Translations under genes and position numbers: made by a program
Notes under the pieces: model-generated
Told to the model about the DNA's origin: nothing
Databases searched by the model: none
Seen by the model: the letters and a program-made list of their open reading frames with translations, nothing else
Source of the DNA: Kiritimatiellia bacterium
GTDB lineage: Bacteria; Verrucomicrobiota; Kiritimatiellia; RFP12; JBMNHG01
Reading direction: 5' to 3'
NCBI GenBank assembly: GCA_050950285.1
Contig: JBMNHG010000003.1
Span: 802,337 to 848,977 of the forward strand
Length of the DNA: 46,641 nt
Part shown: positions 1,721 through 46,641 of the stretch, piece by piece
Layout of the letters: each line of letters starts with the position of its first letter
Position numbering within the stretch: position 1 is the stretch's first letter

Positions 1721-1722
1721 CA

Positions 1723-5160: not shown

Positions 5161-5172
5161 TTATTTCCCCTT

Positions 5173-8300: not shown

Positions 8301-9827
8301 GAAGGTGTTCGAGCCGGTATCCTGGCCGCGACGGCCCGGCCCGATGTCGTGACCTTCCTTGCCGCCCTGTGCGAAGACCGTGCCGCCGGAAATCGCAACG
8401 ATGGCGCTGGCGCCGCCGGAGAGACTGGAATAAGAGCCGCTGCCGCCGCCGATCCCGGCGGCATAGTCGCCGCCCGTGGCCGTGACGATGCCGCCGGCGA
8501 TATTGACTGTTCCTCCCGTATAGCCGGATCCGCCGCCGCTGCCGCCGCTGCCGATGCCCGCGCCGCAGTTGCTGCTGCCCGTCGCCGTGACCACGCCGCC
8601 GTTGATGGTCACCGTGCCGCCGCTGCCGTTGAAGCCGCCGCCGATGCCGGCGCCATAGTTGCCGCCCGTGGCCGTGACCGTGCCATCGTTGATGGTCACC
8701 GTAGCGCCGGCGCTTTTGTTGCCGCCGCCGATGCCCGCGCCATACTTGCCACCCGTCGCCGTGACCATGCCGCCGTTGATGTTGACCGTGCCGGCATCGC
8801 CTTCGGTGCCGCAGCCGATGCCCGCGCCGTCGGAGCCGGCGGTGGCTGCGACCGTGCCGCCGGCAATGGCCACCATGCCGCCGACGCTTTTGTAACCGCC
8901 GCCGACGGCTGCGGCGTATTTCCCGCCCGTGGCCGTGACCATGCCATCGTTGATGATCACCGTGCCGGCGTTGCCGATATAGCCGCCGCCGATGCCCGCG
9001 CCATAGTTGCCGCCCGTCGCTGCGACGGTGCCGCCGCTGATGGTCACCGTGCCGCCCGTGCCCCTGTCGCCGCCGCCGATGCCTGCGGCTTCCCTCCCGC
9101 CGAAGGCCGTGACCGTGCCGCCGTTGATGGTCGCCGTGCCGCCGTTTTTGTATCGGCTGCCGCCGATGCCGGCGGCGTAGTTGCCGCCCGTGGCCGTGAC
9201 CGTGCCGCCGACGATGTTCACGGTGCCGCCGTCGCCGAGCCAGCCGCCGCCGATGCCCGCGCCGCCGCTACTGCTGGTCGCTGTGACGGTGGCGGCGAAG
9301 ATGTTGATCGTGCCGCCGTGGCCGATGAAGCCCCTGTAGCCGCTTCCGCCGCCGATGCCCGCGCCATCACGACCGGCCGTTGCGAAAAGAGCGGCCGTGT
9401 CATCGCCCGGCACGTTGGTGACCGAGAGCGTCCGCCCGGCCGCGACCTCAAGGCCCGCGCGGTACTTGCCCGAGTCGAGCGTGTTCGTACCCGCGAGGAA
9501 GAGCGAGACGCAGGCGTTCGTCCCCAGCGAGAAGACGCACTGATAATCGTTTGTTGCCCGGAGCGTCAAGTCCGAGAGCGTGACCGTGCTCGTCACGCCC
9601 TCCTGAACGCCGATTTGCACCTTGCCTGACTCATTGGTGCCCGAAATCGTGAAGGGGCCTACGCCGGAAAGGATGAGGTTCGATGTGGCCGGCTCGTACG
9701 CCCAGCCGGTGTCAGACGAGCCGTCGGAGTCGAGCATGACGCCGTTGACCGTCACGCCGAGGGGGGCGGCGAAGGCGGCGGCGGCCGCACAGAGCGTCAT
9801 CAGCGCGGCGAGGAGTGCATGTCTCAT
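5386..9827 (-). pseudogene. Secreted Gly-rich repeat protein, paralog 3 (three modules), split by a frameshift at ~6437/6438
   Basis: ORF 6306..9827 reads ..LEVAAGRT|PSP and ORF 5386..6549 resumes ..ITNAPGDD. Paralogous modules read GRTLSITNAPGD; 4 nt (AGAG on +) are missing between 6437 and 6438. Confidence 0.8.
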
Positions 9828-9851
9828 GGCAGTGTTCCTTTCAGTTGAGGG

Positions 9852-9913
9852 CGAGAGACGCGAGACGAGAAAGGGGGCTCGCGTCTCATGTCTCTTGTCT
9901 CATGTCTCATGTC
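9852..9913. repeat. Short tandem heptamer repeats with an inverted arm
   Basis: gagacgcgag ... ctcgcgtctc inverted pair, followed by tctcatg/tctcttg/tctcatg/tctcatg heptamers. Confidence 0.6.
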
Positions 9914-9926
9914 CTTCCCCTTTCAT

Positions 9927-12900
9927 TCACTGTGCCAAAACCCGCAGGAAAACACGGGGTTCATCCGTGGCAAAAGGCACGGTAAGCGTCATGCCGTCGC
10001 GCACGGTTCCGGGAAGCGTCGTCCAGGCGGCTTCCGTGAGGTTGGTGCAGTACTGAACCTCGAACGCCGTTACCGTGTTGGTCCAGGCGTCAAAGAGATC
10101 GGGCGGGAGCCTTTCGGCAAGCGTGAAGGTAGCCGTGTTATCCGCCAGCTCGAAGGCGGCGATCGCGAAATAGTGGGTTGTCGCCGCCGCATCCGCGTTC
10201 GCGACGGTCGCGACATAGGGCACGCCGTTCACGATGAAGACATAGTCGCCGTTCGGCAACCAGAGGTAGACCGTGCCGTTTTCGTCGGCGAAGAGGTCGT
10301 CCGTGCCGTAGCCCTCCGGTAGCCCCTCGAATTCCGGCACCGCCGCGTCGGGCGCGAAGACTGGGAAGGTTACGCACCAGATGCGCTCCGTGCCGTTGGA
10401 GGGCGCGAGGGCGATGGTGTCGTTCGCGAGGCGGATCGAGCCGCCGGTAAAGGTGTTCGCGCCGGAGTCTGAAGCTTTGGCGCCGGGGCCGATGTCCGCG
10501 CCGCCTACGCCCGTGGCGAAGATGGTGCCGCCGGAGACGGTCAACGAGCCGCCCTTGCCGCCGGTGTTGCCACCGCCGCCGCCGATGCCCGCGCCGCCGT
10601 CGCCGCCGGTTGCCGTGATCACACCGCCCGAGACCGTGAGAGCAAGCCCCGAGTTGCTGAGGCCGCCGCCGATGCCCGCGCCGGCGGTGCCACCCTGCGC
10701 GACGACCGTGCCGCCGGAGACCGTCATCGTCACAGTGCTGTTGTAGGCGTTGCCGCCACCGCCGATACCAGCGGCATCGGCACCGCCCGTTGCGGTCACA
10801 TGGCCGCCGGAGATGGTCAGCGTCCCCTTGAACACCCCGTTTACGCCGCTGCCGATGCCCGCGCCACGATAGCCGCCCTGCGCCGTCACCGTGCCGCCGG
10901 AGATATCGATCACCGCGTTCCCGCTCGATCCCTGACAACCGCCGCCGATGCCGGCGCCATTTTCACCACCCGTTGCCGTCAGCGCGCCGCCGGAGAGTGT
11001 CAGCGCGCCGCCCGTGCCGCGGTCGCCGCCGCCGACACCTGCACCGCGATAGCCGCCCGCGGCCGTCACGTTGCCGCCGGCAATCTCGACCGTGCCGCCT
11101 GCGTTTCTAAAACTGCCGCCGATGCCTGCGGCGTAGTCGCCGCCGGTTGCCGTCAGTGTGGCCGCGTCGTCGCCGGGCGCGTTGGTGATGCAGAGCGTCT
11201 GGTTGGCCAGCACCTCGATGCCCGCGCGATGCTCCCCCGAGACGAGCGCATTTGCCCCCGCAAGGCAGAGCGAAGCGCGCGACCACTTCCCCATGGAGAA
11301 GGCGCTCCGGCCCGTGCCCGTCACCCGTAGGTTCAGGTTCGCCAGCGTGACGCTGTTGGTCGTGCGGTCCGGCAGGACGACGGAGACCGCGCCGACCATG
11401 TTCGTGCCGGCGAGCGTGAAGGGGCCCGCGCCGGAGAGCGTCAGAACGCGATCCGCCGGGGCGTAGCTCCATCCGGCGACGGCGTTCGTCGAGCCGAAGG
11501 CGACCTCCTCGCCGTTGACCGTCACGCCGACCGGCCCCACGCCATTGGTCACCGATCCGGTACAGGCGCGCCCGTTCGCGGTGAAGGCGTGGACACCGTC
11601 AGGCAGCCAGAGGTAAATCGTGCCGTCGTCGTCGGCAACGATGTCATTCGCGCCGTAGGGCTCGGCACCGGAGAGGAGCGGGCCGACCTCGACCGCCCCG
11701 CCCGGGGCGAAGCCGCCTGCCATCACACAGGCCACCCGCGCCGCGGCGTTGGAGGGCACGGGGGAGATAGCGGAGTTCGCGAGGCGGATCGAGCCGCCGG
11801 TGAAGAGGTTCGTGCCGAAGCCCGTACACTGTTGCCCCGCCCCGATATCTTCGCCGCCGCCGGCGCCTGTCGCGAAGACCGTGCCGCCGGAAATCTTCAG
11901 GATAGCACCCGCGCCGCGGTAGCCGCCGCCGATGCCTGCCGCACCGTAGTAGTAGTTGTTGTTGTCGCGATAGAACCCGCCCGTCGCCGTCACCCTGCCG
12001 CCGGAGATGGTCACCTCGCCGCCCGCGCCGCCGTCGCGATAGCCATCGCCGCCGCCACCGCCGATGCCGGGGGCGCGCTGGCCGCCCGTCGCGACAACCG
12101 TGCCGTCCGAAATCTCGACCACAGGACCGGCACCGCCGCGGCCGCCGCCGCCGATGCCCGCGGCGCACCGCCCGCCCGCCGCGATGACCGCACCGCCGGA
12201 GATCGTCACCGTGCCGCCCGCGCCGCCGTCACTAGAAAAGGATCCACCGCCGCCGATGCCCGCACCCCCTTGCGAACCGCCAGTCGCCGTCACCGTGCCG
12301 CCGGAGACGTTCACCACGCCGCCCGTGCCGCTGTTTCCGCCGCCGATGCCCGCAGCGTAGTAATTGCCTGTTGCCGTGACTGTGCCACCGGAGATCGTCA
12401 CCGTGCCACCGTGGCCACCGTTACCGCCACCGATGCCTGTAGCGTTGCTGTTACCCATCGCGTGGACATCGCCGCCGGAAATCTCCACCGTTCCGCCGTT
12501 ACCGCCGTTGCCGCCGCCGATGCCGGTGCCACCGTTTGCGCCGCCCGTCGCGGAGATCGTGCCGCCGGAAATCGTCACCGTGCCGCCGTCGCCGCCGCTG
12601 CCGCCGCCAATGCCGGCACCATAGCCGCCGCCGGTCGCCGTCACCTCGCCGCCCGTGATGGTCACGACACCGCCCGCGCCGCCGATGGCCTGATAGGCGC
12701 CGCCGCCGCCGATGCCCGCGGCATAGCCGCTGCCCGACGCCGTGACCGTGCCGCCGGAGATGGTCACCGTGCCGCCATCACAAGTGGCACCTTCGCCACC
12801 GCCGATGCCTGCGCTGTTGTTGCCACCTGTTGCCTTAACCGCGCCGCCGGAAATCGTCACCGTCCCGCACGCACTGGAGGATCTGCCGCCGATGCCCGCG

Positions 12901-13361
12901 CCGCGCGAGCCCTTGACGACGAGCGCGGCTGCTTCGTCGCCGGGGGCGTTGGTGATCGAGAGCGACGCGCCCGGCGGGACTTCGATGCCCGCATAGCTCG
13001 AATCCAGCGTGCTCGTCCCCGCCAGAAGCAGCGTGACGCAGGCGTTCGTCTCCAGCACAAAGACGCCTTGGGTGGCGCCTGTCGCCCAGAGCTTCAGATC
13101 CACCAGCGTGACGGTGTTGGTCACTTCCTGCGGGACGGCGATCATCACCTGCCTCATGTTGTTCGTGCCGGCGATCGTGAAGGGGCCGGCACCGGAAAGC
13201 GTGAGCGTGGGCGAGGCGTACGCCCAGCCATCGCCGGACGAGCCGGCGGAGTCGAGCATGTCGCCGTTGACGGTGACGCCGACGGGCCCGGCCGTTGCGG
13301 CGGCGGCGATGCAGGCGATGAAAAAGGCGGGGAGGAGAGGGCGGAAGGGTTGCTTTTTCAC
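9927..13361 (-). CDS. Secreted Gly-rich repeat modular surface protein, paralog 4
   Basis: Probable GTG start at 13361 (VKKQPFRPLLPAFFIACIAAAATA). Two repeat modules. C-terminal ~120 aa nearly identical to paralog 2. Confidence 0.85.
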   Translation of the reverse strand: MKKQPFRPLLPAFFIACIAAAATAGPVGVTVNGDMLDSAGSSGDGWAYASPTLTLSGAGPFTIAGTNNMRQVMIAVPQEVTNTVTLVDLKLWATGATQGVFVLETNACVTLLLAGTSTLDSSYAGIEVPPGASLSITNAPGDEAAALVVKGSRGAGIGGRSSSACGTVTISGGAVKATGGNNSAGIGGGEGATCDGGTVTISGGTVTASGSGYAAGIGGGGAYQAIGGAGGVVTITGGEVTATGGGYGAGIGGGSGGDGGTVTISGGTISATGGANGGTGIGGGNGGNGGTVEISGGDVHAMGNSNATGIGGGNGGHGGTVTISGGTVTATGNYYAAGIGGGNSGTGGVVNVSGGTVTATGGSQGGAGIGGGGSFSSDGGAGGTVTISGGAVIAAGGRCAAGIGGGGRGGAGPVVEISDGTVVATGGQRAPGIGGGGGDGYRDGGAGGEVTISGGRVTATGGFYRDNNNYYYGAAGIGGGYRGAGAILKISGGTVFATGAGGGEDIGAGQQCTGFGTNLFTGGSIRLANSAISPVPSNAAARVACVMAGGFAPGGAVEVGPLLSGAEPYGANDIVADDDGTIYLWLPDGVHAFTANGRACTGSVTNGVGPVGVTVNGEEVAFGSTNAVAGWSYAPADRVLTLSGAGPFTLAGTNMVGAVSVVLPDRTTNSVTLANLNLRVTGTGRSAFSMGKWSRASLCLAGANALVSGEHRAGIEVLANQTLCITNAPGDDAATLTATGGDYAAGIGGSFRNAGGTVEIAGGNVTAAGGYRGAGVGGGDRGTGGALTLSGGALTATGGENGAGIGGGCQGSSGNAVIDISGGTVTAQGGYRGAGIGSGVNGVFKGTLTISGGHVTATGGADAAGIGGGGNAYNSTVTMTVSGGTVVAQGGTAGAGIGGGLSNSGLALTVSGGVITATGGDGGAGIGGGGGNTGGKGGSLTVSGGTIFATGVGGADIGPGAKASDSGANTFTGGSIRLANDTIALAPSNGTERIWCVTFPVFAPDAAVPEFEGLPEGYGTDDLFADENGTVYLWLPNGDYVFIVNGVPYVATVANADAAATTHYFAIAAFELADNTATFTLAERLPPDLFDAWTNTVTAFEVQYCTNLTEAAWTTLPGTVRDGMTLTVPFATDEPRVFLRVLAQ

Positions 13362-32940: not shown

Positions 32941-34378
32941 GGACTTTCCCCAAAAAATCGGGTCATTCCAGAAAGACCAGCCCGAGCGGGTTTGATTCGA
33001 TGTCTGGCGGCTTGTAGCCGTTCCATTTCCCGTGGCGCGTGAAGAGCCTCCCGAGGCCGTCGGCGACGGCGTAGTGGAGGAACTCGGACACTCCGTAGAT
33101 GCGCTTGGCGGCGTGGGCGATGTTGGCCGTCAGGATCTCGCAGCGCAGCCGTCCGGCCAGCCAGACGCAGTTGAAGCAGATGACGGCCAGCAGCAGCGCG
33201 ACCATGTTTTTCAGGCGCCGGTACGTCAGGACCCGGACGTCCTCGAGGTTGTAGCTCTGCTTGACGAAGCGGATCGCGTCCTCGACGCGCCACCGCGTCA
33301 GATAGCCCTCGACGACCTGCCACAGGGACTTGCGCGACGTCGTCCCGGCCAGCGTGGTCAGCAGGAGCATCGGCTGTTCGCCGAACCCCTTCACCACGAC
33401 CATGCGCAGGGGCTTGTCGGGCCTCTGCGGCAGGGCGACGGTCATGGCGCCGAACTCCAGCTTATAGCTTTTCACCCCGTCCCCCGTCTCCCTCGTGACG
33501 ATCTCGATGTGCTTCATGGGGCAGGATGCCGCCAGTTCTTCGGCCAGCGCGGTCCGCCGGCCGTGGAGCAGGTTGCGGTTGCCCACGAGGCGCACGATGT
33601 AGTCCAGTTTGCGCCGGTCCAGGCCGTCGAACAGCCAGTCTCCGTCGCCTCCGCGGCCGATGACGTAGATGCCGCGCTTCTTCGCGCGGGAGCTGATCTG
33701 GTCGATGACGCCGAGCACCTCGTCGTTCTGGCTGATGAAGCCCTCCGCCTCGCTCGACCACAGCCGCATGTGCAACGGCGTGATCCGGCGGCCGCCGCTC
33801 TCGCAGGCGACCGCCAGGCAGGCGCTGTATCCGTTGCCGATCTCCCCCGTGCTCCCGTCCCGGACGCGGGCGAGATATTCCATCTTCTTCGCGTACAGCT
33901 TACGGATGTCGGTCGGGTCGATGACGATCAGCGTGTCCTGATGGACGTGACGCGAGCCCAGACGGGCGACAGCGTCGGAAATCCCCTGCTCGATGCCCTC
34001 GCTCCCGAGCATCCGGCTCAGCCTGTCCTCCAGTTTCTTCATCGATATCGGCTCGTCGAGCGCGCGGGCGATCCGGCTGAGCTTCACGTCCTGCGACGCC
34101 TGTATCCCGTAGACCATGTCGCCCACGAACTTGCCGAGCGGCTTGGAAAACCGGGGGGAAAGTTCCCCCAAAAAATTCTTGAGTTGCTCTCGCGCTTTGA
34201 ACGCCGTTGCGCTATGATTCATGTCGGTTTTCCTTTCCGGTTTTTGGTTGAACCGCCATTTTGGCAGAACCGGCGGAGGAAAACCACTTTTTCACTTTCA
34301 GGCACGCCCGTCAGAGACGCATCCCCTTTGTTTTCAAGGACTTAGATATAATTGCCCCCGATTTTTTGGGGAAAGTCC
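32941..34378 (-). mobile_element. IS4-type insertion sequence with 22-bp perfect terminal inverted repeats
   Basis: ggactttccccaaaaaatcggg (32941-32962) and cccgattttttggggaaagtcc (34357-34378) bracket one transposase ORF. The true ends may extend 2-3 nt further. Confidence 0.85.
32963..34222 (-). CDS. IS4-family DDE transposase
   Basis: IVIDPTD; YREK signature YLTRWRVEDAIRFVK; the second acidic motif reads IGRGGD. Confidence 0.85.
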   Translation of the reverse strand: MNHSATAFKAREQLKNFLGELSPRFSKPLGKFVGDMVYGIQASQDVKLSRIARALDEPISMKKLEDRLSRMLGSEGIEQGISDAVARLGSRHVHQDTLIVIDPTDIRKLYAKKMEYLARVRDGSTGEIGNGYSACLAVACESGGRRITPLHMRLWSSEAEGFISQNDEVLGVIDQISSRAKKRGIYVIGRGGDGDWLFDGLDRRKLDYIVRLVGNRNLLHGRRTALAEELAASCPMKHIEIVTRETGDGVKSYKLEFGAMTVALPQRPDKPLRMVVVKGFGEQPMLLLTTLAGTTSRKSLWQVVEGYLTRWRVEDAIRFVKQSYNLEDVRVLTYRRLKNMVALLLAVICFNCVWLAGRLRCEILTANIAHAAKRIYGVSEFLHYAVADGLGRLFTRHGKWNGYKPPDIESNPLGLVFLE

Positions 34379-34390
34379 TTATGCAAGGGT

Positions 34391-34798
34391 CTATCCAAGC
34401 ACACCGGGGCGAATGCCCCGAGGGATGGAGCGAAGCGACGTAGTCGAAGGGCTTCTCCCGAGTTCGTCGCATTGCCCATGGTCTTCTACGTCTACATCCT
34501 CCACAGGCGCGACGGTCGCATCTCTGATTCTCCATCCCCAATAAGCAGAAATGCCTTTGGCGCCAAGTTCCTTGAATCCGCCGATGAGCACCCCTCGGGC
34601 ATCCTCACTGTTTCGGATTTTCCAGTCGGGTTTTGCGTCAAGGTAGTAATGAACATAACAAAACTTGTCTTCTTTCTTTGTTACAATTTTCCGTTCGGCT
34701 ACATCGGGTGTGCTAGCGGGGGTTCCCTTTACGTCACTATTCCCTGGGCTAGAACAACCGGAAAGAATAAGCGGAAACAGCAATACAATGAGTTTCAT
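34391..34798 (-). CDS. Cassette 3 gene: putative lipoprotein, probably 3'-truncated/chimeric
   Basis: MKLIVLLFPLILSGC lipobox directly after the attC R' site. Below ~34522 the sequence turns GC-rich and no attC follows. Confidence 0.6.
   Translation of the reverse strand: MKLIVLLFPLILSGCSSPGNSDVKGTPASTPDVAERKIVTKKEDKFCYVHYYLDAKPDWKIRNSEDARGVLIGGFKELGAKGISAYWGWRIRDATVAPVEDVDVEDHGQCDELGRSPSTTSLRSIPRGIRPGVLG
34478..34522 (+). pseudogene. N-terminal remnant of a GIY-YIG nuclease-like gene
   Basis: MVFYVYILHRRDGRI resembles the (F/Y)YVYIL..DG..Y start of small GIY-YIG proteins. Preceded by a gagcgaagcgacgtagtcgaaggg REP-like stretch. Confidence 0.45.
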
Positions 34799-34831
34799 TT
34801 CATTCTCGACTACATGAAGTTGTGGTTGAGT

Positions 34832-34962
34832 GTCTAACGTTTTGGCTCACTTGCGGCGGGATTGATGTGCACAAAACTTCAAAAAGCAAACAGAACGTAA
34901 TGAAACCGAAATCTTCAAAAAACCGCACAGCCCCCGCCGTCAAGTGCAGCCAATTGTTAGCC
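34832..34962 (-). other. Integron attC site (131 bp)
   Basis: Minus strand: R'' GGCTAAC, 5-nt spacer, arm GGCT[G]CACTTG[A]CGGCGGG pairing with CCCGCCGCAAGTGAGCC (two extrahelical bases), R' GTTAGAC. Starts 5 nt after the res stop. Confidence 0.9.
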
Positions 34963-34967
34963 CAAAT

Positions 34968-37490
34968 TTACGCCCCATTTTTTTCTAACTCTGCATCAAG
35001 TTTAGAACTGAAATTAAAATTCCCGTTTCTTAAGTGATCAAAATAATAGTCGTAATCTTCAGGCGTCAAAAAGTTAAAATAATATTTCAGTTTATCTTGC
35101 TGTTCGTTTAAAGTTTTAAAATGATTTTTAGCCGCTTTGTATTTTGCCTTATTTTCATCCGATGGTTCTCTGATTTCTTCATCTCCCTTTATTTCAATCA
35201 CCAAAATACTATCACCTATTTTTATAAAGAAATCAGGATTGAATCTTCCTCTTTTGGGATGTTCGCCTTTTTTCCATGAATATTCAATAGGATAAAAATC
35301 TTGATCAGTAGATTTAAGCCATGAGTCAACGGCTTTGGAATTTTCTTGAGCAATAAGCCTTCTGATAAACAGGCGTTCTGGTTTATGATCAGAAATAGCA
35401 AGATTCAATGGCGATTTGAAATTGTAAATATTATCGATCTTTTCCATGGCTGAAACAGGTCTGGTTTCATCCTCCTCAAGGTCTTTAATAAAAGTTACAG
35501 TTTCCTCGTCACTTAATTTTAAGGTCAAATCGTCAAAAAATACAGTCGCATCGCCGCGCTTAATGGCAGCATATCCAACACTATTTCTATTTCTGTTTTT
35601 TGTATCCACTTCAATCAATGCTTTTGGTGACATTCTATATCGAACTGCTTTCGCAGCGGCACGGTGAATGACGCCGAATGCCTGATATATTTTCTGCCTG
35701 TTTTCATCACTGATCTGATCCCTGCTTTCGCCAATACGATCCAGTGAATTCCTGATGAGTTTTTTCAACCAATCCAAATCATATTTTTCTGCATAGTTAG
35801 TGGGATTTTCTGTTTCTGCTGTTTCCATATCAATGGATTTGAAACGATTGTGCAGTTGTTCGGCAATTTCATCAATTGAAAACATTTTGTATTTGACTAA
35901 TGTTTTTTTTCTGCGGCTTTCACCTGTAGTTGCCCGCACATATTCCGTTTCCCGTTCCAAGGCTGGCGACTGGCGGATAAGGGTGATAAATCCTTTTGTA
36001 AATTCGTATTCCTTTTCCTGTTTATATTCTTCGGTTTCGGTGAGTTTTTCGTAGTCGATGTTATGTATGGTGAAATGATAGTCTTGTTCCTTTTCAACAG
36101 GGTAGGAATAAACCCGTTTTTCGATCTCCAACACTTCATCAACAAGATGCTTGATTCTACCTGACCAGCGGTCATGATTAAATACAGTGACCACTGGTTT
36201 TTGGCCCAAATAAACTTCGGGTATGCGCAAGCCTCTGCCAAGCACCTGCGCAATGAGTAGTTTGCTGTCAAATGCTCTTTCTTCATGGGGCACGATCTGA
36301 AAAACATTTTTTACGTCCCAACCCTCGGTCAACATACTCACCGATGTGATCCATTCAACAGGGCTGTCTTTCCTGTCCACGCCTTTCAATTTCCTGACAT
36401 TCTCTTTATGCTTTGGCGACGATGTGACTTCCAAAACCTTTTTGGCGGCATCTTCTTCTGAAATGCCTTCGGTCTCCGCCAAAAATCGAATGAGATCATC
36501 GGTCAGTTTATTGCAGGCTCGAATGTCTTTGGTTATTAAAATTGTTAATGGTCTGACCAGACGATATTTTGTATTCTTGTTTTCGATGTGGTTGTCATAG
36601 ATTTTTTGAAGTTTTTCGTCCTGCGTATTGGATGAATCTTCCGCAACATAATCGATAATTTTTACAAAGCCCTGTTCAATGGCTTCCCGCAAAGAATAGC
36701 GGGCGATGACGTCAGTAAAGTAGTCGTCGCCGATATAACACGTTCCAGAAAGCCCGACGATGTAATTGAATCCAAAATCTTCATCAACTAAAAACTCTTT
36801 CCACTTTTTAAAGGATTTCCCTGTCTGGTTGTAAACATGATGAGTCTCATCATTTACGACCAGCGTTCTGTCGCCTTTGCCTGCCAGACTCTCACGAATC
36901 GATGATTTGACATGCTCATACAGCGCATGGCAGTTTTCAACACAGATGGTTCCCGTGGTGATACTCTCGGTGGCATTGATGATATGCGGATTTTTGATAA
37001 CCGCCTCGTCAGGTAAAAGATTTCGCAAGGTATCATCACCAGAAAGCAGTTTGAACTTTTCCATCAGCCCTTCTTCTATGGTTGTTGACGGGCAAACCAC
37101 CAAAACATAATCCACTGCGCCTTCTGCCAGCAGAATGCGGGCAATGCCATAAATAACATAACTTTTGCCCGTTCCCGTTGCCATGTCCAGTGAGCAGGAT
37201 AATTTATCGGGGAATTGCAGGTGTTTCTTGAACTGTTCAAATGTGCCGTAAAACGTTTGCAGCGTCTCATTATTATGATAATTTTCTTCGGCAAGGTCGG
37301 TTACATTCTTATAATTTCCGCTTAAAAGGTAAGCAAGTGTATTGCGGATTGCCGTTTTCTGATATTCCCGTTCACCGCACAGGGCGTCCAAAAAGCCTTC
37401 GTATTTATTAATATCAAACACAGCGGGATTGACACTTTTGCTGACGTTTAAAACAAGATCCTGGTTGAGAAAGCGTTGATGATCCAGCAT
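34968..37490 (-). CDS. res: Type III restriction-modification Res subunit (SF2 helicase + PD-(D/E)xK nuclease)
   Basis: MATGTGKS, DETHH, MLTEGWD and QVLGRGLR; C-terminal PDFF..IEIKG. ATG 37490 follows GGAGG, 1 nt after the mod stop. Confidence 0.85.
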   Translation of the reverse strand: MLDHQRFLNQDLVLNVSKSVNPAVFDINKYEGFLDALCGEREYQKTAIRNTLAYLLSGNYKNVTDLAEENYHNNETLQTFYGTFEQFKKHLQFPDKLSCSLDMATGTGKSYVIYGIARILLAEGAVDYVLVVCPSTTIEEGLMEKFKLLSGDDTLRNLLPDEAVIKNPHIINATESITTGTICVENCHALYEHVKSSIRESLAGKGDRTLVVNDETHHVYNQTGKSFKKWKEFLVDEDFGFNYIVGLSGTCYIGDDYFTDVIARYSLREAIEQGFVKIIDYVAEDSSNTQDEKLQKIYDNHIENKNTKYRLVRPLTILITKDIRACNKLTDDLIRFLAETEGISEEDAAKKVLEVTSSPKHKENVRKLKGVDRKDSPVEWITSVSMLTEGWDVKNVFQIVPHEERAFDSKLLIAQVLGRGLRIPEVYLGQKPVVTVFNHDRWSGRIKHLVDEVLEIEKRVYSYPVEKEQDYHFTIHNIDYEKLTETEEYKQEKEYEFTKGFITLIRQSPALERETEYVRATTGESRRKKTLVKYKMFSIDEIAEQLHNRFKSIDMETAETENPTNYAEKYDLDWLKKLIRNSLDRIGESRDQISDENRQKIYQAFGVIHRAAAKAVRYRMSPKALIEVDTKNRNRNSVGYAAIKRGDATVFFDDLTLKLSDEETVTFIKDLEEDETRPVSAMEKIDNIYNFKSPLNLAISDHKPERLFIRRLIAQENSKAVDSWLKSTDQDFYPIEYSWKKGEHPKRGRFNPDFFIKIGDSILVIEIKGDEEIREPSDENKAKYKAAKNHFKTLNEQQDKLKYYFNFLTPEDYDYYFDHLRNGNFNFSSKLDAELEKNGA

Positions 37491-37491
37491 A

Positions 37492-39381
37492 TTATTTGCC
37501 TCCCCGTTTAATTTGCTTTGAACCACCAAAATCTTGCAGCGCCTTTATTTCCCGATATTCATTTCCGTATATATCCAGATAAATAATCATGATCTGCTTT
37601 TTAATATTTTCCAAAGGTAATAATACCTTCCAGCCGTTTTTCTCAATTTCGCTGGCGTAATAGGATTTATCCAGGTTGAATATTTCGCCATCATAATCAA
37701 AATCCACCATGATCATGGAAAGCGATTCCCGATTTCCCAATTGACTTGCGCCTTTTAGCATGGCTTCGCTTTTGAATGTTTTGATTTTAATAACCGCATA
37801 TTCAAGCAGTTGATCTTTTGGTTTTTCTATTGAATAGGCACATTCCACTTTAGGCTGGCGAATAAAATCAAAACCGACGGCGTCCACCGTATCATTGACC
37901 TGACTTTCATCAATGGGTTGTTTTATGGCTTCAAAGTCTTTGCTGTGCAGTTCATTGATAATTGAATAGGGAATACGAAGGATATAATAGCGCACCGAAC
38001 CCTTATCAATGTAATCCTCCAGAAAGGTGACGCTGGCGGCAGGGGCGATAATAAAAAACTGGCTGCCGATTTTGGAACCGATCATCGAATGCAGGTCGTC
38101 GATAAAACCGTAATCCAGCACCACGCCGCCCTCTTTTTGATAATCAAAAACCAGCACGTCGGAACGGCCCTTGTAACCGTCCAATTCAATGCCTGAAACG
38201 GTGTGCTTGCTGTCCCGGCAATTAAAAAGCAATAGGGCGAATTTGCGCCATTCTGGCCAGGGCAATTTTTTCAGCATGGCGAAATCGTAAAGCCCTGCAT
38301 GATACAAAGTAAATGGTTTTGGTTTTAATTTTTTGCCCTTGTTGCCGATCTCGCTTTTCAGATTGAGCAGGCGTTTTTGCATGGTGTAAATGGCCAGTTT
38401 GCCGCAGTCGATGCCGATCCAGCGGCGACCCAATTTCTCGGCAACGGCTAATGTTGTCCCTGATCCTGCAAATGCGTCTAATACAATGTCACCTTCGTTT
38501 GATGAAGCCTTTATTATTCTTTCATGAAGGGCTTCTGGTTTTTGAGTAGGGTAACCTATTCTCTCTTTTGCCATTGAATTGATATAAGGAATATCATGCC
38601 ACCAGTCCTTTGCTCTTGCTCCATCTTTTTGATATAATTTATATTTTTTACCATTTAAATATTGCCATCTATATTTCCCATTTTCATCTTCTTCTGTAAA
38701 ATGAGAGCCTTCATCTGCATAAGCCTCATACACATCATTCCAAATATATTTATCTTTCTTTGAATAAAATAACAATGTTTCATGCGATTTCTGAAAGGCT
38801 TTTGATGCAGCAGTCCAGCGTCTATATCCCCAAATAATTTCATTTCTAAAATTATTTTCAGAAAAAATCTCGTCCATTATAATTTTTGCATAGTGCGTTT
38901 TTTTCCAATCAAGATGAACATAAATACTCCCATCATCTGCAAGCAATTCTCTCAAAAAAATTAACCTTTTTCTTAAAAACTCAACAAATTTTGCCCCAGA
39001 AATTTTATCCTGATAAGCCTTCTGATCCTGACTTCCCCGAAATTCCTGTTTAGTCGCAAACGGTGGATCGATATAGATCAGTTTTACCTGTCCTTTCACT
39101 TCAGGATCATCGAGCAGGGATTTAATTACCTGCAAGTTATCACCGAAAATTAGTTTGTTCGTCCAACCGTTGCCGTTTGTGCCAAAGGTTTTAATAGGCT
39201 GCAATGGCACGGCCATGGTATCGGCCAAAATATCTTCTTCCCGCTCCTTTCCCGCATACACCAGTTCGTATTCCTTTTTTTCAGGCGGAAACAGGATATG
39301 CTTGTAATCCAAAGGCAGGTCTTCGCCTTTTTCCAGCAATTCAATTATTCTTCTTCTGTCTCGTTCGTTCAACTTTGCCAC
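37492..39381 (-). CDS. mod: Type III Mod-like beta-class adenine DNA methyltransferase
   Basis: GDNL, IYIDPPF (motif IV), YPTQKPE and DAFAGSGTT (motif I). GTG 39381 after AAGGAG. Confidence 0.88.
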   Translation of the reverse strand: MAKLNERDRRRIIELLEKGEDLPLDYKHILFPPEKKEYELVYAGKEREEDILADTMAVPLQPIKTFGTNGNGWTNKLIFGDNLQVIKSLLDDPEVKGQVKLIYIDPPFATKQEFRGSQDQKAYQDKISGAKFVEFLRKRLIFLRELLADDGSIYVHLDWKKTHYAKIIMDEIFSENNFRNEIIWGYRRWTAASKAFQKSHETLLFYSKKDKYIWNDVYEAYADEGSHFTEEDENGKYRWQYLNGKKYKLYQKDGARAKDWWHDIPYINSMAKERIGYPTQKPEALHERIIKASSNEGDIVLDAFAGSGTTLAVAEKLGRRWIGIDCGKLAIYTMQKRLLNLKSEIGNKGKKLKPKPFTLYHAGLYDFAMLKKLPWPEWRKFALLLFNCRDSKHTVSGIELDGYKGRSDVLVFDYQKEGGVVLDYGFIDDLHSMIGSKIGSQFFIIAPAASVTFLEDYIDKGSVRYYILRIPYSIINELHSKDFEAIKQPIDESQVNDTVDAVGFDFIRQPKVECAYSIEKPKDQLLEYAVIKIKTFKSEAMLKGASQLGNRESLSMIMVDFDYDGEIFNLDKSYYASEIEKNGWKVLLPLENIKKQIMIIYLDIYGNEYREIKALQDFGGSKQIKRGGK

Positions 39382-39398
39382 AAGCAAACTCCTTATGC

Positions 39399-40133
39399 TT
39401 ATTTTATTGCCTCAATCTCATATTCTTCAATTAAACCTTCATCGGCAAAACTAAAATATGAATTTTCTCCAATGATTACATGATCAAAAATCCGCAGTTC
39501 CATTGCCAGAGCGGCTTTTATCAGATCTTTGGTCAATCTTTTATCGGCATCACTAGGCTTTATATTTCCCGATGGATGATTATGCGCCAATATCATGGCG
39601 GGAGATTGATATTTCAGCGCTGTCAATAAAATGTCCCGAACCGATGGATTCACCCGATCAACTGTGCCCACATCTATATCAATGACTTCTGATACATGAT
39701 TGCCTTTATCCAGTAACAATATTTTAAATAGTTCCTTCTTTAAATCCCGCATCAGGGGCATCAGAAAATCCACCACATCAGCAGAAGATTTTACCACGCC
39801 ATGAAACGCCTTTTCCTCACTCATCATACGCCGTCCCAACTCAATTGCCGCTTTTAATTGGGCAATTTTGGCATCTTTCAATCCATTAATTTCTTTAAAC
39901 TCCGATATATCAACCCCGCTCATTGCCCGCAACGATTTGAATTTATTCAATAACTCCCTTCCCAAATCAATAGCGCTTTTACCAGCCGTTCCCGTTCTTA
40001 TTAAAATAGCCAGCAATTCGGCATTGCTTAAAACATGCTCGCCGTATTTTAATAATTTCTCCCTCGGCCTGTCATCTTCAGGCCAGTTGCGGATGGAAAA
40101 GGGATATTTTTTAATTTTTGACTTTTTGTTCAT
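39399..40133 (-). CDS. radC: RadC-family JAB-domain protein
   Basis: DRPREKLL..LSNAELLAILIRTG; HhH region; HNHPSG..PS.AD..DHVIIG JAB motif. Confidence 0.92.
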   Translation of the reverse strand: MNKKSKIKKYPFSIRNWPEDDRPREKLLKYGEHVLSNAELLAILIRTGTAGKSAIDLGRELLNKFKSLRAMSGVDISEFKEINGLKDAKIAQLKAAIELGRRMMSEEKAFHGVVKSSADVVDFLMPLMRDLKKELFKILLLDKGNHVSEVIDIDVGTVDRVNPSVRDILLTALKYQSPAMILAHNHPSGNIKPSDADKRLTKDLIKAALAMELRIFDHVIIGENSYFSFADEGLIEEYEIEAIK

Positions 40134-41674: not shown

Positions 41675-41911
41675 TCAGCGGACCACGATCGTCGTTCCCA
41701 CAATCTTCTTGGTGTTGAGCCGCTGCGCCGCCGACCAGTCGGTCGTGAAGCTGCGCGTGTCCAGATCCCGCTCCTCCGCATCCGCCACGGCGCTGATCGA
41801 GCGCGTGTCCAGCAGCGCTTCCGACGACACCGCGCTCACCTCCGCGCCCGCCAGCCCCGCCAACAGCGCCCCCGCCGCCAGCGCGGCCATCATTCCGTTT
41901 ACCGTTTTCAT
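41675..41911 (-). CDS. Small secreted protein with repeated L(D/N)T(R/K) motifs
   Basis: AAGGAA RBS, signal peptide, LDTRS x2 plus LNTKK, ends GTTIVVR; directly downstream of RT/TR. Confidence 0.55.
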   Translation of the reverse strand: MKTVNGMMAALAAGALLAGLAGAEVSAVSSEALLDTRSISAVADAEERDLDTRSFTTDWSAAQRLNTKKIVGTTIVVR

Positions 41912-41979
41912 CGTTTGGTTCCTTTCGTTTCTCTGTTTTTACCCGGTTGAAAAGGTTCCGGCACGGCTTTTGCCCCACC

Positions 41980-43245
41980 TCAAACGGCGGGGCTACCGGC
42001 CGCCCGGAGCCGGGCCTGTTCGTCCCCGCCTGAGCGGGGCGCGGGCGACGGCGGATGGGACCCTGCCTGTCCTTTTGGCCGCATGGTGCTCACAAGGCGG
42101 AAGCCGATGTTGTTGTTCCGGTTCGACGGGTCGTTGTTGTTGCGATACGCCGAACGGCAGTTCGACGCGGTGTTGTTCCAGCTTCCGCCCCGTTTCACGC
42201 GGTTCGAACCCGAATCCGCCCCTTCTCCGCCCGCCCTAAGATTTTTCCCGACAGTCAGGGTTGACCGAAGGATTCCCCTGAACCCGTACCAGCGCACCCC
42301 GCCTTCGGCTGCCGCCGCGCACATCGCCAATTGTTCGCTGTCTATCTCGCCCGACTGCCACTGGCGTTCCCGCAGCCTGAACTTCCGCCTCGTCCGCTGC
42401 AGACGCGATCTTTGGAAGCGCCATCCGCCGGGAAAAATCCTGAGCCCCAAAAACGCCAGGCCCTCGGACACCGGCGCGGTCACCGTCCGCTCGCCCTTGA
42501 TCTCCAGCCCGCGCTCCCTCTCGACCCATTCGCACACGCCGTCGTGCAGCCGCCATATTTCGGCCTTTCCGTCCGCGAAAAGGACGATGTCGTCCATGTA
42601 ACGGACATAGCCCGGAGCCCCCAACCCCTCCTTGGCGTAATGGTCCAGCCCCGACAGGTAGAAGTTGGCGAACCACTGGCTCGTCAGATTCCCGATGGGC
42701 AGCCCGCGCCCGTCCGGCAGCCCCGGCACCGGATGCCGCACGATCATCTCGATCACCCGGCGGATTTCTTTCTCGCGGAACATGGGCAGGAGCAGCTCCA
42801 ATAGCCTGTCGTGCGGAACGCTGTCGAAATACCGCCGAATGTCCAGCTTGCACGTCCAGCCGTGCCGCCGCACCAGCTCCCGCGCCCGCGCCGCCGCCCG
42901 GTGCGTACCCTTGCCGACGCGGCACGCGTAGCAATCCTCCGTGAACCCCCGCTCCAGCAGCGGCGCGATCACGCCGCACAGCGCGTGGTGCGCCACCCGG
43001 TCCCTCACCGGCGCGCAACTGATCGTGCGCGGCTTCGGGTCCGTCACCCGGAACTGCCCGTACGGCCCCGGCCGCCACGCGCCCGACAGCAGTTCCTCCC
43101 GCAATGCCGCCAACTCCTCTTCCCGCCGCGCCGCGAACGCCGCCACGTCACGCTTGGTGCCGCGCCCCTTCATCACGCGCCTCAGCGCCGCCGCCAGATT
43201 CTCCGGCGACGTGACCCGCTCCCAAAGCTGTCCGTACGATCTCAT
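41980..43245 (-). CDS. DGR reverse transcriptase (ORF extends through the TR)
   Basis: KPRTI..APVRDRVAHHAL, YACRVGKGTH, KLDIRRYFDSV, GLPIGNLTSQWFAN (DGR-type SQ), YVRYMDD and FLG. No maturase or endonuclease domain. Confidence 0.93.
   Translation of the reverse strand: MRSYGQLWERVTSPENLAAALRRVMKGRGTKRDVAAFAARREEELAALREELLSGAWRPGPYGQFRVTDPKPRTISCAPVRDRVAHHALCGVIAPLLERGFTEDCYACRVGKGTHRAAARARELVRRHGWTCKLDIRRYFDSVPHDRLLELLLPMFREKEIRRVIEMIVRHPVPGLPDGRGLPIGNLTSQWFANFYLSGLDHYAKEGLGAPGYVRYMDDIVLFADGKAEIWRLHDGVCEWVERERGLEIKGERTVTAPVSEGLAFLGLRIFPGGWRFQRSRLQRTRRKFRLRERQWQSGEIDSEQLAMCAAAAEGGVRWYGFRGILRSTLTVGKNLRAGGEGADSGSNRVKRGGSWNNTASNCRSAYRNNNDPSNRNNNIGFRLVSTMRPKGQAGSHPPSPAPRSGGDEQARLRAAGSPAV
42089..42222 (-). 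ncRNA. DGR template repeat (TR)
   Basis: 134-bp ungapped match to VR. 33 adenines on the coding strand and 11 AAC codons in the target frame. Confidence 0.93.
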
Positions 43246-43811
43246 TCTGTTTTCGAAAGAATCGAAAGATTCGACCGAATCGATTCATCCGATTCCATGA
43301 TTTCCTTGTCGGTCTCATCCGCCCCGCCGCCGTCCGCCCCTTCCTTCTCAGGCGCGGGCGCGGTCACGTCCGGCATCAGCCCCAGCACCTCCGCCCCGTA
43401 ATCCCGGCAGAACGCCTCGCCCACGCCGTCGATCTCCTTCAGCCCCGCCAGCGAGCGCGGCACCCGCCGCGCGATCTCCGCGAGCTGCGCGTTCCGCGCG
43501 ATCGCGTACGCCGGCTTCCCCTCCGCCCGCGCCCGGTCGTTGCGCCAGCGCTTCAGATCGCGGTACAGCGGTCGCCGCGCCTCCTCCAGCCCCTCCTCCG
43601 GGTCAGGCCCCGCGCGGCGGCGGAACCCGTCGCCGTCCGTCGGGGCGTCCCCCAGCAGCAGCGTCAGAGACAGGTGCGGCACGTTGCCGTGCGTGAAGAA
43701 ATGCTCGCGCGCCTCCAGCACCTCCCGTCCGGAGATCGCCTTGCGCAGCGCCTCCTCCGGAAAGCCCTGAAGCCCTTCCTGGTATCTCAGCGTGATCACC
43801 CGCACGTCCAT
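43242..43811 (-). CDS. HRDC-domain DGR accessory protein
   Basis: LYRDLKRWRNDRARAEGKPAYAIARNAQLAEIARRVPRSLAGLKEIDGVGEAFCRDYG is an HRDC pattern. GGAGGA RBS; ATGA overlap with the RT start. Confidence 0.88.
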   Translation of the reverse strand: MDVRVITLRYQEGLQGFPEEALRKAISGREVLEAREHFFTHGNVPHLSLTLLLGDAPTDGDGFRRRAGPDPEEGLEEARRPLYRDLKRWRNDRARAEGKPAYAIARNAQLAEIARRVPRSLAGLKEIDGVGEAFCRDYGAEVLGLMPDVTAPAPEKEGADGGGADETDKEIMESDESIRSNLSILSKTE

Positions 43812-43856
43812 ACTCATTTCCTCCGCAGTCGGCGGCAAACTCGCCACACTGACGGG

Positions 43857-43886
43857 ATACTAAGCCCGCCCGCCCGCCTCAGTCAA
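43857..43886 (-). promoter_or_regulatory. Candidate promoter for the HRDC-RT-TR transcript
   Basis: TTGACT-N18-TAGTAT. Confidence 0.45.
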
Positions 43887-44044: not shown

Positions 44045-44087
44045 CCCTCTCCCTCTGGGAGAGGGCCGCCTGCCTGCCGCAGGCAGG
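44045..44087. repeat. Two GC-rich hairpins downstream of VR (candidate DGR target-recognition cruciform; REP-like)
   Basis: cctgcctg-ccg-caggcagg (44069-44087) and ccctctccc-tct-gggagaggg (44045-44065). Confidence 0.65.
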
Positions 44088-44109: not shown

Positions 44110-45433
44110 CTATGGCAGGGTCCTCACAAGGCGGAAGCCGATGCCGTTGTACCGGTCCGACGGGCCGCTGCTGGCGCGACACGCCGAACGGCAGTCCGAC
44201 GCGGTGCTGTTCCAGCCACCGCCCCGCACCACGCGGGACGAACCCGAATCCGCCCCCGTAGGATCTTCGGCCGGACCCGTCCCGAGATTCCCGACGTACC
44301 AGTCCAGGCACCACTCCCACACGTTGCCGTGCATGTCGTACAGGCCCCACGCGTTCGGCGCGTACGAGCCGACCGTTGCCGTGGCGTTCGCCGCGGTGCA
44401 TTCCGTCGCAGGATCGACCCACGCCGTGCCGTTCCACACCCTGCCGCCGTCGTACATGTAACGTCCCAACAGATCAAGCCGCGCGTCGGACGTGGTGTTC
44501 GTCAGGTTCACCGTGCCGTCGTTCAGCGCGCCGGTCGTGCCCGCCCGGCAGGCGTACTCCCACTGAGCTTCGGTCGGCAGGTCGAAGCCCGCCAGTCCGG
44601 TCTTGGTCCGCAGCCGCCCCATGAAGGAACCCGCGGTCACCGCGTCGTTCGCGGGCCAGTCCACGGCCGCGTCGTCCGTGTTGTTGATGTTCTCCCGGAT
44701 GTCGTAGTACGACACCTGCTCCACCGGGCGGGTCAGCCTGTAGTCGTTGTTACTCCACTTCGCAGGCCACGACCGCACGTCGCCCATCACCTGCTGCCAC
44801 TGGCTCTGCGTCACCTCGTAGACGCCCGCGTAGAACGCCTTGGTCAGCGTTACCTTGTGCCAGTCCTCCCGCGTGCCGTCGCGGCCGGTCTCGTTGGACG
44901 GCGAGCCCATCATGAACCCTTCTCCGCCCGTCGGCGGGATCTGGCGCATCAGGATGTGAACCGTCTTATACAGGTCGTTGGTCACACCCCCCGGCACCGC
45001 CTCCGCGCTGGCGTAATAGTAGACGGGATAGCTGTTCGTGGACGGTCCGCCGGTCACGTCCACTGCGCAGTACTGCGGCGGCGCGTTGGTGGACCACGCG
45101 GTCACCCGCGCCTTGGCTGGTCTCCGTCACGTTCTCCGGCCAGTCCGCGCCCGCGTTCCAGACGATGTGCCGATCCGTGCCGGGCTGGATCACCACCGAG
45201 ACGTCGCCGGAGAGGCGCGTCACCGCCGAGTCCGGGATCGCCACCCCGTTGGTCTCGATGCCGAGCGTGACGATGGCCGCCTCGCCCGCGAGGTCGTACA
45301 GCACATCCACCACGCGCGTGCCCGCGCGCTGCGCCATCCGCACGTTCGTCACCTGCGGCACGGCATACGCCGCGCCCGCGCCCATCGTCACGGCGGCCGC
45401 CACGGCCGCCGCTGTTTTCGTTATGCCTCTCAT
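44110..45433 (-). CDS. DGR target: secreted formylglycine-generating-enzyme (FGE-sulfatase/CLec-fold) domain protein; +1 frameshift near 45118
   Basis: Signal peptide at 45433. FMMGSP, YEVTQSQW, PVEQVSY, LPTEAQWEYACRAG, NAWGLYDMHGNVWEWC, RVVRGGGW and GFRLV. Removing 1 nt near 45118 joins ..NVTET to AKARVTAW.. Confidence 0.85.
44123..44256 (-). repeat. DGR variable repeat (VR)
   Basis: Near the 3' end of the target (~45 codons, ending 4 codons before the stop). 19 differences from TR, all opposite TR adenines. Confidence 0.93.
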
Positions 45434-45611
45434 TTCGCTCTCCTCCTGTTGCGGCGGCCGTGTGGCCGCCTGATTTTGTGAAAGTTCTTGGACACTCGAC
45501 GCTCGCCCCCCGACGCTCGGGGAAGGTTGCCGGTTGCCGATTGCTGATTGCCTCTTCCTTATAGTAGGTCCGAAGTCACTAGCATCCCATAGGGATGTTT
45601 GAAATTATTTC

Positions 45612-45749
45612 CAAGGGTAACCTCGCTTCGCTCGGTGGCTTTCAGACAGGAAAGAGCGCGAAGAACAGCCCTTGTTTCTTCAAGGGTAACCTCGCTTCGC
45701 TCGGTGGCTTTCAGACAGGAAAGAGCGCGAAGAACAGCCCTTGTTTCTT
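45612..45749. repeat. Perfect 69-bp tandem duplication
   Basis: 45612-45680 = 45681-45749. Confidence 0.9.
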
Positions 45750-45868: not shown

Positions 45869-46641
45869 TCAGATCGCCAGAGTCAGTTGCCTGTAAACCG
45901 GCGACAGAGAAACCGCCGGACAATACGTCACCGGCGCGGTGCGCGCAGACAGGTTCCCGCCCCATTCGTAGACCACACCTTTCGTCTTGGTCCAGATGCG
46001 GATCAGCAGCATGTTCGCGGAGCCGCAGGCAGGGCAACGTATCTCGCCCTTGGCAAAACGCTCCTCCAGTTTCCGGCTGTCCGGCTGTCCGGGGCGTTGG
46101 CGGGCAAAGTACTGCGCCACCTGTCCGGCGCGGCGCACCAGAACCTGCAACGCATCGGCGACCAGGGCATGAATCTTCTTCCGCACCGGCCGGGCATAGA
46201 TGCCGTAGTAACGCACCATCCGGAATCCCTTCGGCGGGAGATGCCGTATCATCCGCCCGATGAACTCGGACGCCGGGATTGTCTCATGCACTTCGCCCTT
46301 GCGATGATCCTCGTACCGGTACGTGACATTCTGTCCGTCGTAGTTCTCGATGCGCCGGATCGAGATCGGCGGGGCGCTCACGTACTTGCACAGGTAGATT
46401 ACCAGCCGCTCCACCGGGCCTGACTCCGGCATGCAGTCGCAGTCAAACCCCGTCGGATACTTCGGAAACATCGAGCCCAGCCTGGCGTGCCAAGCGGCTT
46501 CATAGGCCGTGCCGCGCACCGCCTTTCTCAGAGCCGTGAGAACATGGTACTGCCACTTCTTGCGCAGTTTCTTCGTGTCGAAGAAGTTCACCTGCCGCCA
46601 GGCGTTGTCCTTGTCAATGCCGCCCTCGCTGACCACAAAGC
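45869..46641 (-). mobile_element. IS91-family (Y2 rolling-circle) transposase, 5' part outside the window
   Basis: YLCKYVSAPPIS (YxxxY), VTYRYEDH, EFIGRMIRHLPPKGFRMVRYYG and a C-terminal CPACG. Confidence 0.8.

What the first reader, a model, noticed from the sequence alone, without database searches (positions are those of the whole stretch)
41980..42260. TR lies downstream of the RT core and is translated in-frame as the RT C-terminus
Seen: the RT ORF has no stop before TR. It reads through the whole TR in the same frame as the target VR (Asn-rich tail) and on through GC hairpins (ccccgc-ctga-gcgggg 42024-42039; gcccgg-ag-ccgggc 42002-42015) to 41980. Known: in the Bordetella prototype, TR is non-coding and lies between avd and brt. 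Inference: here one RNA would be both RT mRNA and template, which could enforce cis-preference or require translation/template switching. Alternatively a stop codon was lost, giving an ~85-aa dispensable tail.
Basis: partly seen in the sequence, partly recalled or inferred. Interest (0 to 1): 0.72.

Follow-up and report, generated by a model that had tools for sequence, protein, structure and literature searches.

The report
Mutator enzyme translated through its template
The reverse-transcriptase gene of this bacterial gene-diversifying element has no stop codon before its RNA template and runs in frame through it; most relatives keep that frame open while the tail's amino acids drift, so selection likely acts on ribosomes crossing the template, not on the extra protein.

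Summary
Confirmed. The 421-codon RT ORF (43245-41980, minus strand) reads through the template repeat (TR, 42224-42081) in the target's frame and stops in an RNA hairpin loop. It is not an assembly error: contigs from four RNA runs bridge 42230-42300 without an indel.

The layout is already known (Schillinger 2012, group 3), and this scan found similar DGRs on other DNA.

It is an old clade trait. 97 of 116 scorable RT clusters (54-100% identity, ranked on the core alone) keep the frame across 17 spacer lengths, against 7-9 losses (binomial P about 0.002 or less). The tail shows no protein-level constraint outside the TR (pN/pS 0.8-1.05, core 0.24) and has pLDDT below 50. The RNA under it covaries like the Bordetella spacer RNA. 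Relatives that stop before, inside or just after the TR still have adenine-specific TR/VR pairs, so read-through is favoured but not required.

Best reading (0.45): ribosome passage protects the untranslated-looking template on an hrdc-RT-TR transcript. Alternatives are cis-loading or gating (0.2), a neutral passenger (0.2) and a functional peptide (0.1). No mechanism was tested.

The parts
44110..45433 (-). DGR target gene (N-terminal part plus FGE-sulfatase/C-type-lectin domain), split in this assembly by one extra base near 45118
   Evidence: Pfam PF03781 E 6.5e-40. A one-base deletion at 45118/45119 is seen in contigs of 4 of 4 DNA runs and 3 of 4 RNA runs. The two halves are in one frame in 8 of 8 loci where both were found.
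44115..44258 (-). Variable repeat (VR) at the 3' end of the target
   Evidence: 22 A-mismatches and 1 other against the TR. The only VR in the genome. Variant positions in two runs map to TR adenines in 19 of 20 and 16 of 17 listed cases.
43857..43886 (-). Sigma70-like promoter candidate in front of hrdc
   Evidence: Consensus match, 9 of 12; 3 sites found in the region against 0.3 in shuffles. Not shown to function.
43242..43817 (-). HRDC accessory gene; its stop overlaps the RT start (ATGA)
   Evidence: PF00570 E 2.7e-18; junction shown
41980..43245 (-). DGR reverse transcriptase ORF, 421 aa: core about 1-328, tail about 329-421
   Evidence: RVT_1; IGNLTSQ and YMDD motifs; best Foldseek hit 8UB7, Bordetella DGR RT, E 8e-23, rmsd 2.3; residues 328-421 have pLDDT below 50
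42237..42261 (-). Hypervariable spacer between the RT core and the DGR RNA; length varies almost only in whole codons
   Evidence: 21 haplotypes in 36 close loci; pN/pS 0.78 with no codon-position bias; 17 in-frame lengths in 97 clusters
42226..42236 (-). 5' strand of a predicted long-range duplex (cPRT-Stop-like)
   Evidence: Pairs with 42055-42043; 99% of cells paired, 2 compensatory pairs; also in the single-sequence MFE fold
42081..42224 (-). Template repeat (TR), translated as RT codons 341-389
42043..42055 (-). 3' strand of the predicted duplex
42024..42039 (-).
   Evidence: 98% paired; same order of elements as the Bordetella cPRT Stop
41954..42011 (-). Long interrupted stem (likely the RT-binding element); the RT stop codon (41982-41980) lies in its cap loop; a T-run follows at 41953
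   Evidence: Outer helix 97% paired with 3 compensatory pairs, inner helix 83% with 5

Best explanation
This is an HRDC-type diversity-generating retroelement whose RT gene reads in frame through its template repeat and the folded RNA behind it, and the open frame is likely kept so that ribosomes cover the template, not for the extra peptide. Shown: the read-through, its spread across the clade, the bias toward frame-preserving indels, amino-acid drift outside the TR, and covarying RNA helices. Inferred: one promoter makes an hrdc-RT-TR-spacer transcript. Ribosomes finishing the RT core run on across the C-rich TR, which would shield it from Rho-dependent termination or decay until the structured spacer RNA has been made. 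A ribosome-free or processed copy would then fold the duplex across the TR and be reverse-transcribed by cis-priming, as in Bordetella. The tail is a likely disordered by-product, and read-through is favoured rather than essential.
For: (1) Core-only search: 97 of 116 scorable clusters read the TR in the VR frame, including 24 of 26 at 50-60% identity. (2) 17 spacer lengths (14-58 codons), 24 changes on the tree, all in frame, against 9 losses (7 forced by well-supported branches). With the minimum 16 in-frame events against all 9 losses, P = 0.0016 for p = 1/3. (3) A palindrome-like insertion of about 100 nt in L008/L108 is in frame and stop-free, with 2-4 stops in each other frame; shuffle P = 0.08. 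(4) pN/pS in 17 distinct read-through loci: core 0.24, spacer 0.78 (0.46-1.31), post-TR 1.05 (0.48-3.49). The TR's 0.21 equals 0.18 in 8 TRs that the RT does not translate in that frame. (5) The tail ends 7-111 aa after the TR's GFR motif. (6) Among 19 distant groups (under 54% identity) full passage occurs in the VR frame 3 times and in other frames 3 times, which fits passage rather than peptide. (7) The host encodes Rho. The last 90 nt of the TR are 37% C and 23% G, against 26% and 42% in the RT core. No promoter-like site lies between the hrdc promoter and the TR. (8) RNA helices: 95% of cells paired, 10 compensatory pairs, 0 of 500 shuffles reach the covariation score, slid controls 39-49% paired.
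Against: No experiment or ribosome data shows that the tail is translated, or that Rho acts here. 10 of 36 close loci and 19 of 116 clusters lack VR-frame read-through, and several still have clean TR/VR pairs: L003 18/0, L006 16/0, L007 22/2, L097 18/1. 12 of 19 distant RT-TR groups stop before the TR. Pure passage should tolerate the second open frame more often than seen (3 cases: L101, P0132, P0117). The TR folds as stably as RT coding sequence (-55.9 against -55.1 and -65.5 kcal/mol), so it is not a clearly unstructured Rho site. Frame bias in the linker after the TR is not significant on the conservative count (6 against 5, P = 0.12). Stop avoidance by point mutation in the close clade is only marginal (P 0.04 on 70 substitutions, and the sample was chosen for having no stop). 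Tree counts may be inflated by recombination: the window and L083 are 99% identical yet carry different spacers.
Confidence: 0.45

Rival explanations
1. Tether or gate. The tail is a sequence-independent linker long enough to let the finished RT core leave the ribosome and fold next to its own TR-spacer RNA (cis loading, perhaps replacing Avd). Alternatively, ribosome traffic keeps the RNA unfolded and limits mutagenesis to times when translation stops.
For: Same frame bias as above. Apart from contig-cut P0046, VR-frame tails reach at least to the TR end, about 60 aa past the core, more than the recalled 30-40 aa held in the exit tunnel. The stop lies in the cap loop of the predicted RT-binding stem. 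No bAvd family match in the 99%-complete genome.
Against: HRDC elements with a stop before the TR (L007, L013, L097) keep TR/VR pairs. The stop position is not conserved in the wider clade. RT and TR can lie on opposite strands in other DGRs.
Confidence: 0.2
2. Neutral passenger. An ancestor lost the RT stop. The TR is stop-free in the VR frame by necessity and the GC-rich spacer RNA rarely holds stops, so the tail persists by inertia.
For: The TR is open in the VR frame whether or not the RT reads it. 7-9 losses. Five different endings among six basal lineages of the close clade. No amino-acid constraint outside the TR.
Against: At least 16 in-frame length changes against at most 9 losses (P = 0.0016). 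A rough model expects 5-37 stop gains on the tree, depending on assumptions, while only about 4 groups stop before the TR, one of them by a frameshift.
Confidence: 0.2
3. The TR-encoded Asn-rich lectin fragment does something as protein, for example binding HRDC, the target or RNA, or acting as a degron.
For: The VR frame is preferred over the other open frame within the clade (97 against very few). TR pN/pS is 0.21.
Against: The same constraint holds in TRs not translated in that frame (0.18). pLDDT is below 50, although only 9 of 27 alignment rows covered the tail in this frame. It is only about 45 aa of a domain. Distant elements pass through in other frames.
Confidence: 0.1
4. Assembly error or strain-specific stop loss.
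For: The assembly does carry an apparent one-base error in the target gene near 45118.
Against: Four runs bridge the site without an indel. 26 of 36 close loci share the state.
Confidence: 0.01

Closest known systems
DiGReF structural group 3 DGRs (Schillinger et al. 2012, PMC3521204; parts 3-4 of the text and part 1 of supplement S2 read)
   Same: [quoted passage not shown]
   Different: In the parts read, the paper gives no frame, conservation or selection analysis, and it concludes that arrangement is irrelevant and that RT and TR RNAs are probably transcribed separately. Group counts are in a figure that I could not see.
HRDC-containing DGRs, Architecture C (Wu et al. 2018, PMC5758913, passages), e.g. 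Treponema denticola (PMC4891356, passages)
   Same: hrdc gene overlapping the RT gene, FGE-sulfatase/CLec target, C-terminal VR.
   Different: In T. denticola the order is TR-hrdc-RT. Here it is target-hrdc-RT-TR, with the TR inside the RT ORF.
Bordetella phage BPP-1 DGR RNP (Handa et al., bioRxiv 10.1101/2023.10.23.563531, part 1, passages and section 10; PMC6182149, passages; PDB 8UB7)
   Same: RT fold. Same order of RNA elements: upstream/downstream duplex, stem-loop plus adenosines, single strand, long interrupted stem. The upstream duplex strand is coding sequence in both.
   Different: No Avd found here. TR and spacer lie downstream of the RT core and are inside its reading frame. Handa's conservation survey covered 278 DGRs that have Avd. 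The priming adenosine could not be assigned here.
Trichodesmium erythraeum DGR (PMC4143802, passages)
   Same: TR downstream of the RT gene.
   Different: Its TR RNA has its own start site and accumulates as a 265-nt RNA. No promoter-like site was found before the TR here.

Membership tests
Diversity-generating retroelement | RT of the DGR clade with GxxxSQ and YxDD motifs | tested here: met
   IGNLTSQ and YMDD; top PDB hits are Bordetella bRT
Diversity-generating retroelement | TR/VR pair differing at TR adenines | tested here: met
   22 A-mismatches and 1 other over 144 nt
Diversity-generating retroelement | VR at the 3' end of a CLec-fold target | tested here: met
   PF03781 target, VR ends at its stop
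Diversity-generating retroelement | Adenine-specific VR variation among populations | tested here: met
   19 of 20 and 16 of 17 listed VR differences map to TR adenines; the TR is 37/144 A. These are between-strain differences, not a measured rate.
Diversity-generating retroelement | Mutagenic retrohoming shown experimentally | not testable with these tools
   needs culture or heterologous assay
HRDC-type DGR (Wu Architecture C) | HRDC accessory gene in the cassette | tested here: met
   PF00570 next to the RT; present in the close loci that have room upstream
Schillinger group 3 | TR overlaps an end of the RT ORF | tested here: met
   TR lies within RT codons 341-389
Bordetella-type bRT-Avd-RNA system | Avd accessory protein | tested here: not met
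   0 matches to PF22296 in the genome, 99.35% complete; a single profile was used
Bordetella-type bRT-Avd-RNA system | cPRT-Stop duplex, stem-loop and long RT-binding stem around the TR | tested here: met
   the structure was drawn from these sequences, and its function is inferred by analogy
Bordetella-type bRT-Avd-RNA system | TR:spacer primer duplex with a priming adenosine | tested here: inconclusive
   no convincing conserved pairing seen in the alignments

The most novel reading that the evidence does not exclude
A large Avd-less DGR clade couples retrohoming to translation. The RT is made on the very RNA it copies, and ribosome passage through the template acts as a cis-loading tether or an on/off gate, so that hypermutation of the target starts when translation ends or stalls.
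Probability: 0.2. Interest if true: 0.75.

Novelty: new variant of a known kind. Interest (0 to 1): 0.42.

Why it matters
How DGR activity is regulated, and how DGRs without Avd recruit their RNA, are open questions. A clade in which selection keeps the RT frame open across the template, together with natural relatives that stop before, inside or just after it, gives a ready allelic series for testing whether translation controls template supply. Practical point: such RTs get a spurious FGE-sulfatase domain call (P0083 is named SUMF1/EgtB/PvdO family), and one survey added a filter that removes overlapping calls, so this class may be undercounted. The Bordetella-like RNA architecture in an HRDC, Avd-less element extends that model beyond the Avd-bearing set surveyed.

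Tried and rejected
Assembly error: rejected.

My first reading, a purely neutral tail (75%), was lowered after the core-only search.

The full-length search favours tail-bearing proteins, so counts come only. Its 178-567 aa window leaves out P0078 (VR frame) and P0117 (other frame). 4 of 120 rows with an unaligned core end were dropped.

Three different stop codons occur at the cap-loop site. I considered this as proof of translation and dropped it: the triplet also stands in L003, L006 and L095, which do not translate it, and the stop moves in the wider clade.

High contig depth over the TR in RNA runs was not used. It also appears in DNA runs, and contigs cannot rank expression or show RNA ends. 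Those contigs do not prove transcription.

Rooting of the close clade is unresolved: basal polytomy, AU p = 0.53. The wider protein tree and the relic open VR frame in L007, L095 and L097 suggest that stop-before is derived there.

No remote targets and no second DGR in the genome.

The single-strand fold of the post-TR RNA is not significant on its own (z = -1.5). RNAalifold on the post-TR piece alone cannot see the long-range duplex.

Literature: searches found no paper analysing frame or selection for 3' read-through. Subscription papers are not searched. Supplements of Wu 2018 and Handa, and Schillinger's Figure 7, were not seen and may list such cases.

The sequence look-up in earlier findings returned nothing.

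Full report
Observation. On the minus strand the window holds a complete DGR: target gene (45433-44110), VR (44258-44115), hrdc (43817-43242), RT (43245-41980) and TR (42224-42081). TR and VR differ at 22 TR adenines and one other base. The RT ORF is 421 codons without a stop, and codons 341-389 are the TR in the VR's frame. The core matches the Bordetella DGR RT. Residues 328-421 have pLDDT below 50, with thin alignment depth there. Contigs from four RNA runs bridge 42230-42300 without an indel; three of them are biogas runs of 2016-17 and may be one campaign. VR differences in two runs fall on TR adenines in 19 of 20 and 16 of 17 listed positions. The closest relatives are MAGs labelled mainly Kiritimatiellia, and the runs that hold the stretch are from digesters, bioreactors, wastewater, landfill and soil.

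Close relatives. 160 loci were fetched. 39 loci at 74% identity or more (the window included) covered the RT 3' end, and 36 had a locatable TR. Of these, 22 read through the whole TR in the VR frame (3 stop right behind it), 4 are open in that frame to the contig end, 3 shift frame and stop 29 nt into the TR, 1 reads through in the third frame, and 6 stop before the TR. Members of each stopping class with enough sequence have adenine-specific TR/VR pairs (L003 18/0, L004 21/1, L006 16/0, L007 22/2, L097 18/1). Read-through is therefore not required for the DGR signature.

Wider clade. A search with the core alone gave 120 clusters at 54-100% identity, 116 of them scorable. 97 carry the TR peptide in frame, 13 end within 12 aa of the core, and 6 have another tail. 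The spacer between core and TR has 17 lengths (14-58 codons) among in-frame members: 24 changes on a FastTree tree, against 9 losses of the state (7 forced). Neutral indels should shift the frame at least two times in three. Taking the minimum 16 in-frame events and counting all 9 losses as shifts gives P = 0.0016. The count is at protein level, and recombination may inflate the tree figure, which is why the minimum was used. After the TR, 80 of 97 keep the frame up to the duplex strand, 9 stop, 6 shift and 2 are unclear. The conservative test there is not significant (P = 0.12). Beyond that point, frames and ends vary freely (7-111 aa). Among more distant RTs (under 54% identity) with a downstream TR, 19 groups: 12 stop before the TR, 3 pass in the VR frame, 3 pass in other frames, and the 19th group's mixed member L017 stops inside it while its partner L117 is one of the 3 VR-frame passes, so one group is counted in both.

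Protein or RNA? In 17 distinct read-through loci, pN/pS is 0.24 for the core, 0.78 for the spacer and 1.05 after the TR. Only the core and the TR show third-position bias. The TR's 0.21 is matched by 0.18 in 8 TRs that the RT does not read in that frame, so it reflects the TR's role as template for the target. The RNA, in contrast, is conserved in all classes. On 21 loci, four helices give 95% paired cells and 10 compensatory pairs; 0 of 500 shuffles reach the covariation score, and slid controls are 39-49% paired. The structure was drawn from these same related sequences, so the controls are lenient. The order is: duplex between 42236-42226 and 42055-42043, stem-loop 42039-42024 with adenosines behind it, single strand, long interrupted stem 42011-41954. 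This matches the cPRT Stop, Thumb Ring and bRT-binding elements of the Bordetella RNP. The RT stop sits in the cap loop of the last stem. The priming site could not be assigned. No Avd was found.

How it most likely works. One promoter candidate lies before hrdc and none before the TR, and hrdc and RT overlap by ATGA. The template RNA is thus probably the 3' end of the RT mRNA (inferred). The host has Rho, and the distal TR is C-rich. Ribosomes running on over the TR would protect it from polarity or decay until the spacer is transcribed. A ribosome-free or processed copy would then fold and be copied by cis-priming (inferred from Bordetella). This explains selection on frame without selection on peptide, and allows repeated loss. 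A possibly related hint is that about 300 nt of avd upstream of the TR are needed in vivo but not in vitro in Bordetella. Against this reading, the TR is not unusually unstructured, shifts into the second open frame are rarer than passage alone predicts, and nothing here shows translation. Tethering or gating, neutrality and a functional peptide remain open.

Comparison and novelty. It is a true DGR of the HRDC type. TR overlap with the RT 3' end is Schillinger's group 3, and RT-TR orders are catalogued. The layout is therefore known, and earlier notes of this scan report it on other genomes (unchecked, not used as support). One of those notes read it as a harmless by-product, and two proposed selection on ribosome passage for an overprinted frame, a reading I reuse. 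What I did not find in the papers searched is evidence that the frame is under selection across a deep clade, or a Bordetella-like spacer RNA in an Avd-less HRDC element.

Verdict: a real feature and a new variant of a known kind; interest 0.42. The novel case, translation-coupled loading or gating, has probability 0.2 and interest 0.75 if true.

Noticed in passing
window 45118-45119: An extra base splits the target gene. Contigs in 7 of 8 runs lack it, so it is probably an assembly error.
   Followed up: yes
P0045 (also P0047): The TR-encoded tail of this RT looks like a diversified VR rather than an Asn-rich TR. It could be cDNA homing into the TR itself, a decayed TR or a chimeric assembly.
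   Followed up: no
L008:819-948, L108:580-709: An insertion of about 100 nt with internal repeats and inverted symmetry sits in the RT-TR spacer, in frame and stop-free.
   Followed up: partly
L095, L097, just after the RT stop: A GTG follows the RT stop in the VR frame and could restart translation across the TR. It is not seen in L007, L013 or L099.
   Followed up: no
window 41675-41911 (-): 78-aa ORF with a signal-peptide-like start and no Pfam match, right behind the cassette; tblastn hit in 23 of 38 close loci.
   Followed up: partly
window 44045-44087 (-): Two GC-rich inverted repeats follow the VR, as in other DGRs (read).
   Followed up: no
window 45610-45748 and 45869-46641: A 69-bp perfect tandem duplication lies next to an IS91-type (Y2_Tnp) transposase fragment at the contig end.
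   Followed up: no
window 32963-40133: A transposase-like ORF and ORFs that look like a restriction-modification pair and RadC (by eye, not scanned) flank the DGR, suggesting an island.
   Followed up: no
window 500-13200: Large arrays of 87-nt (29-codon) glycine-rich repeats, probably surface proteins.
   Followed up: no
L018: A relative at 48% identity has the TR upstream of the RT and two VRs, so cassette order changes within the lineage.
   Followed up: no
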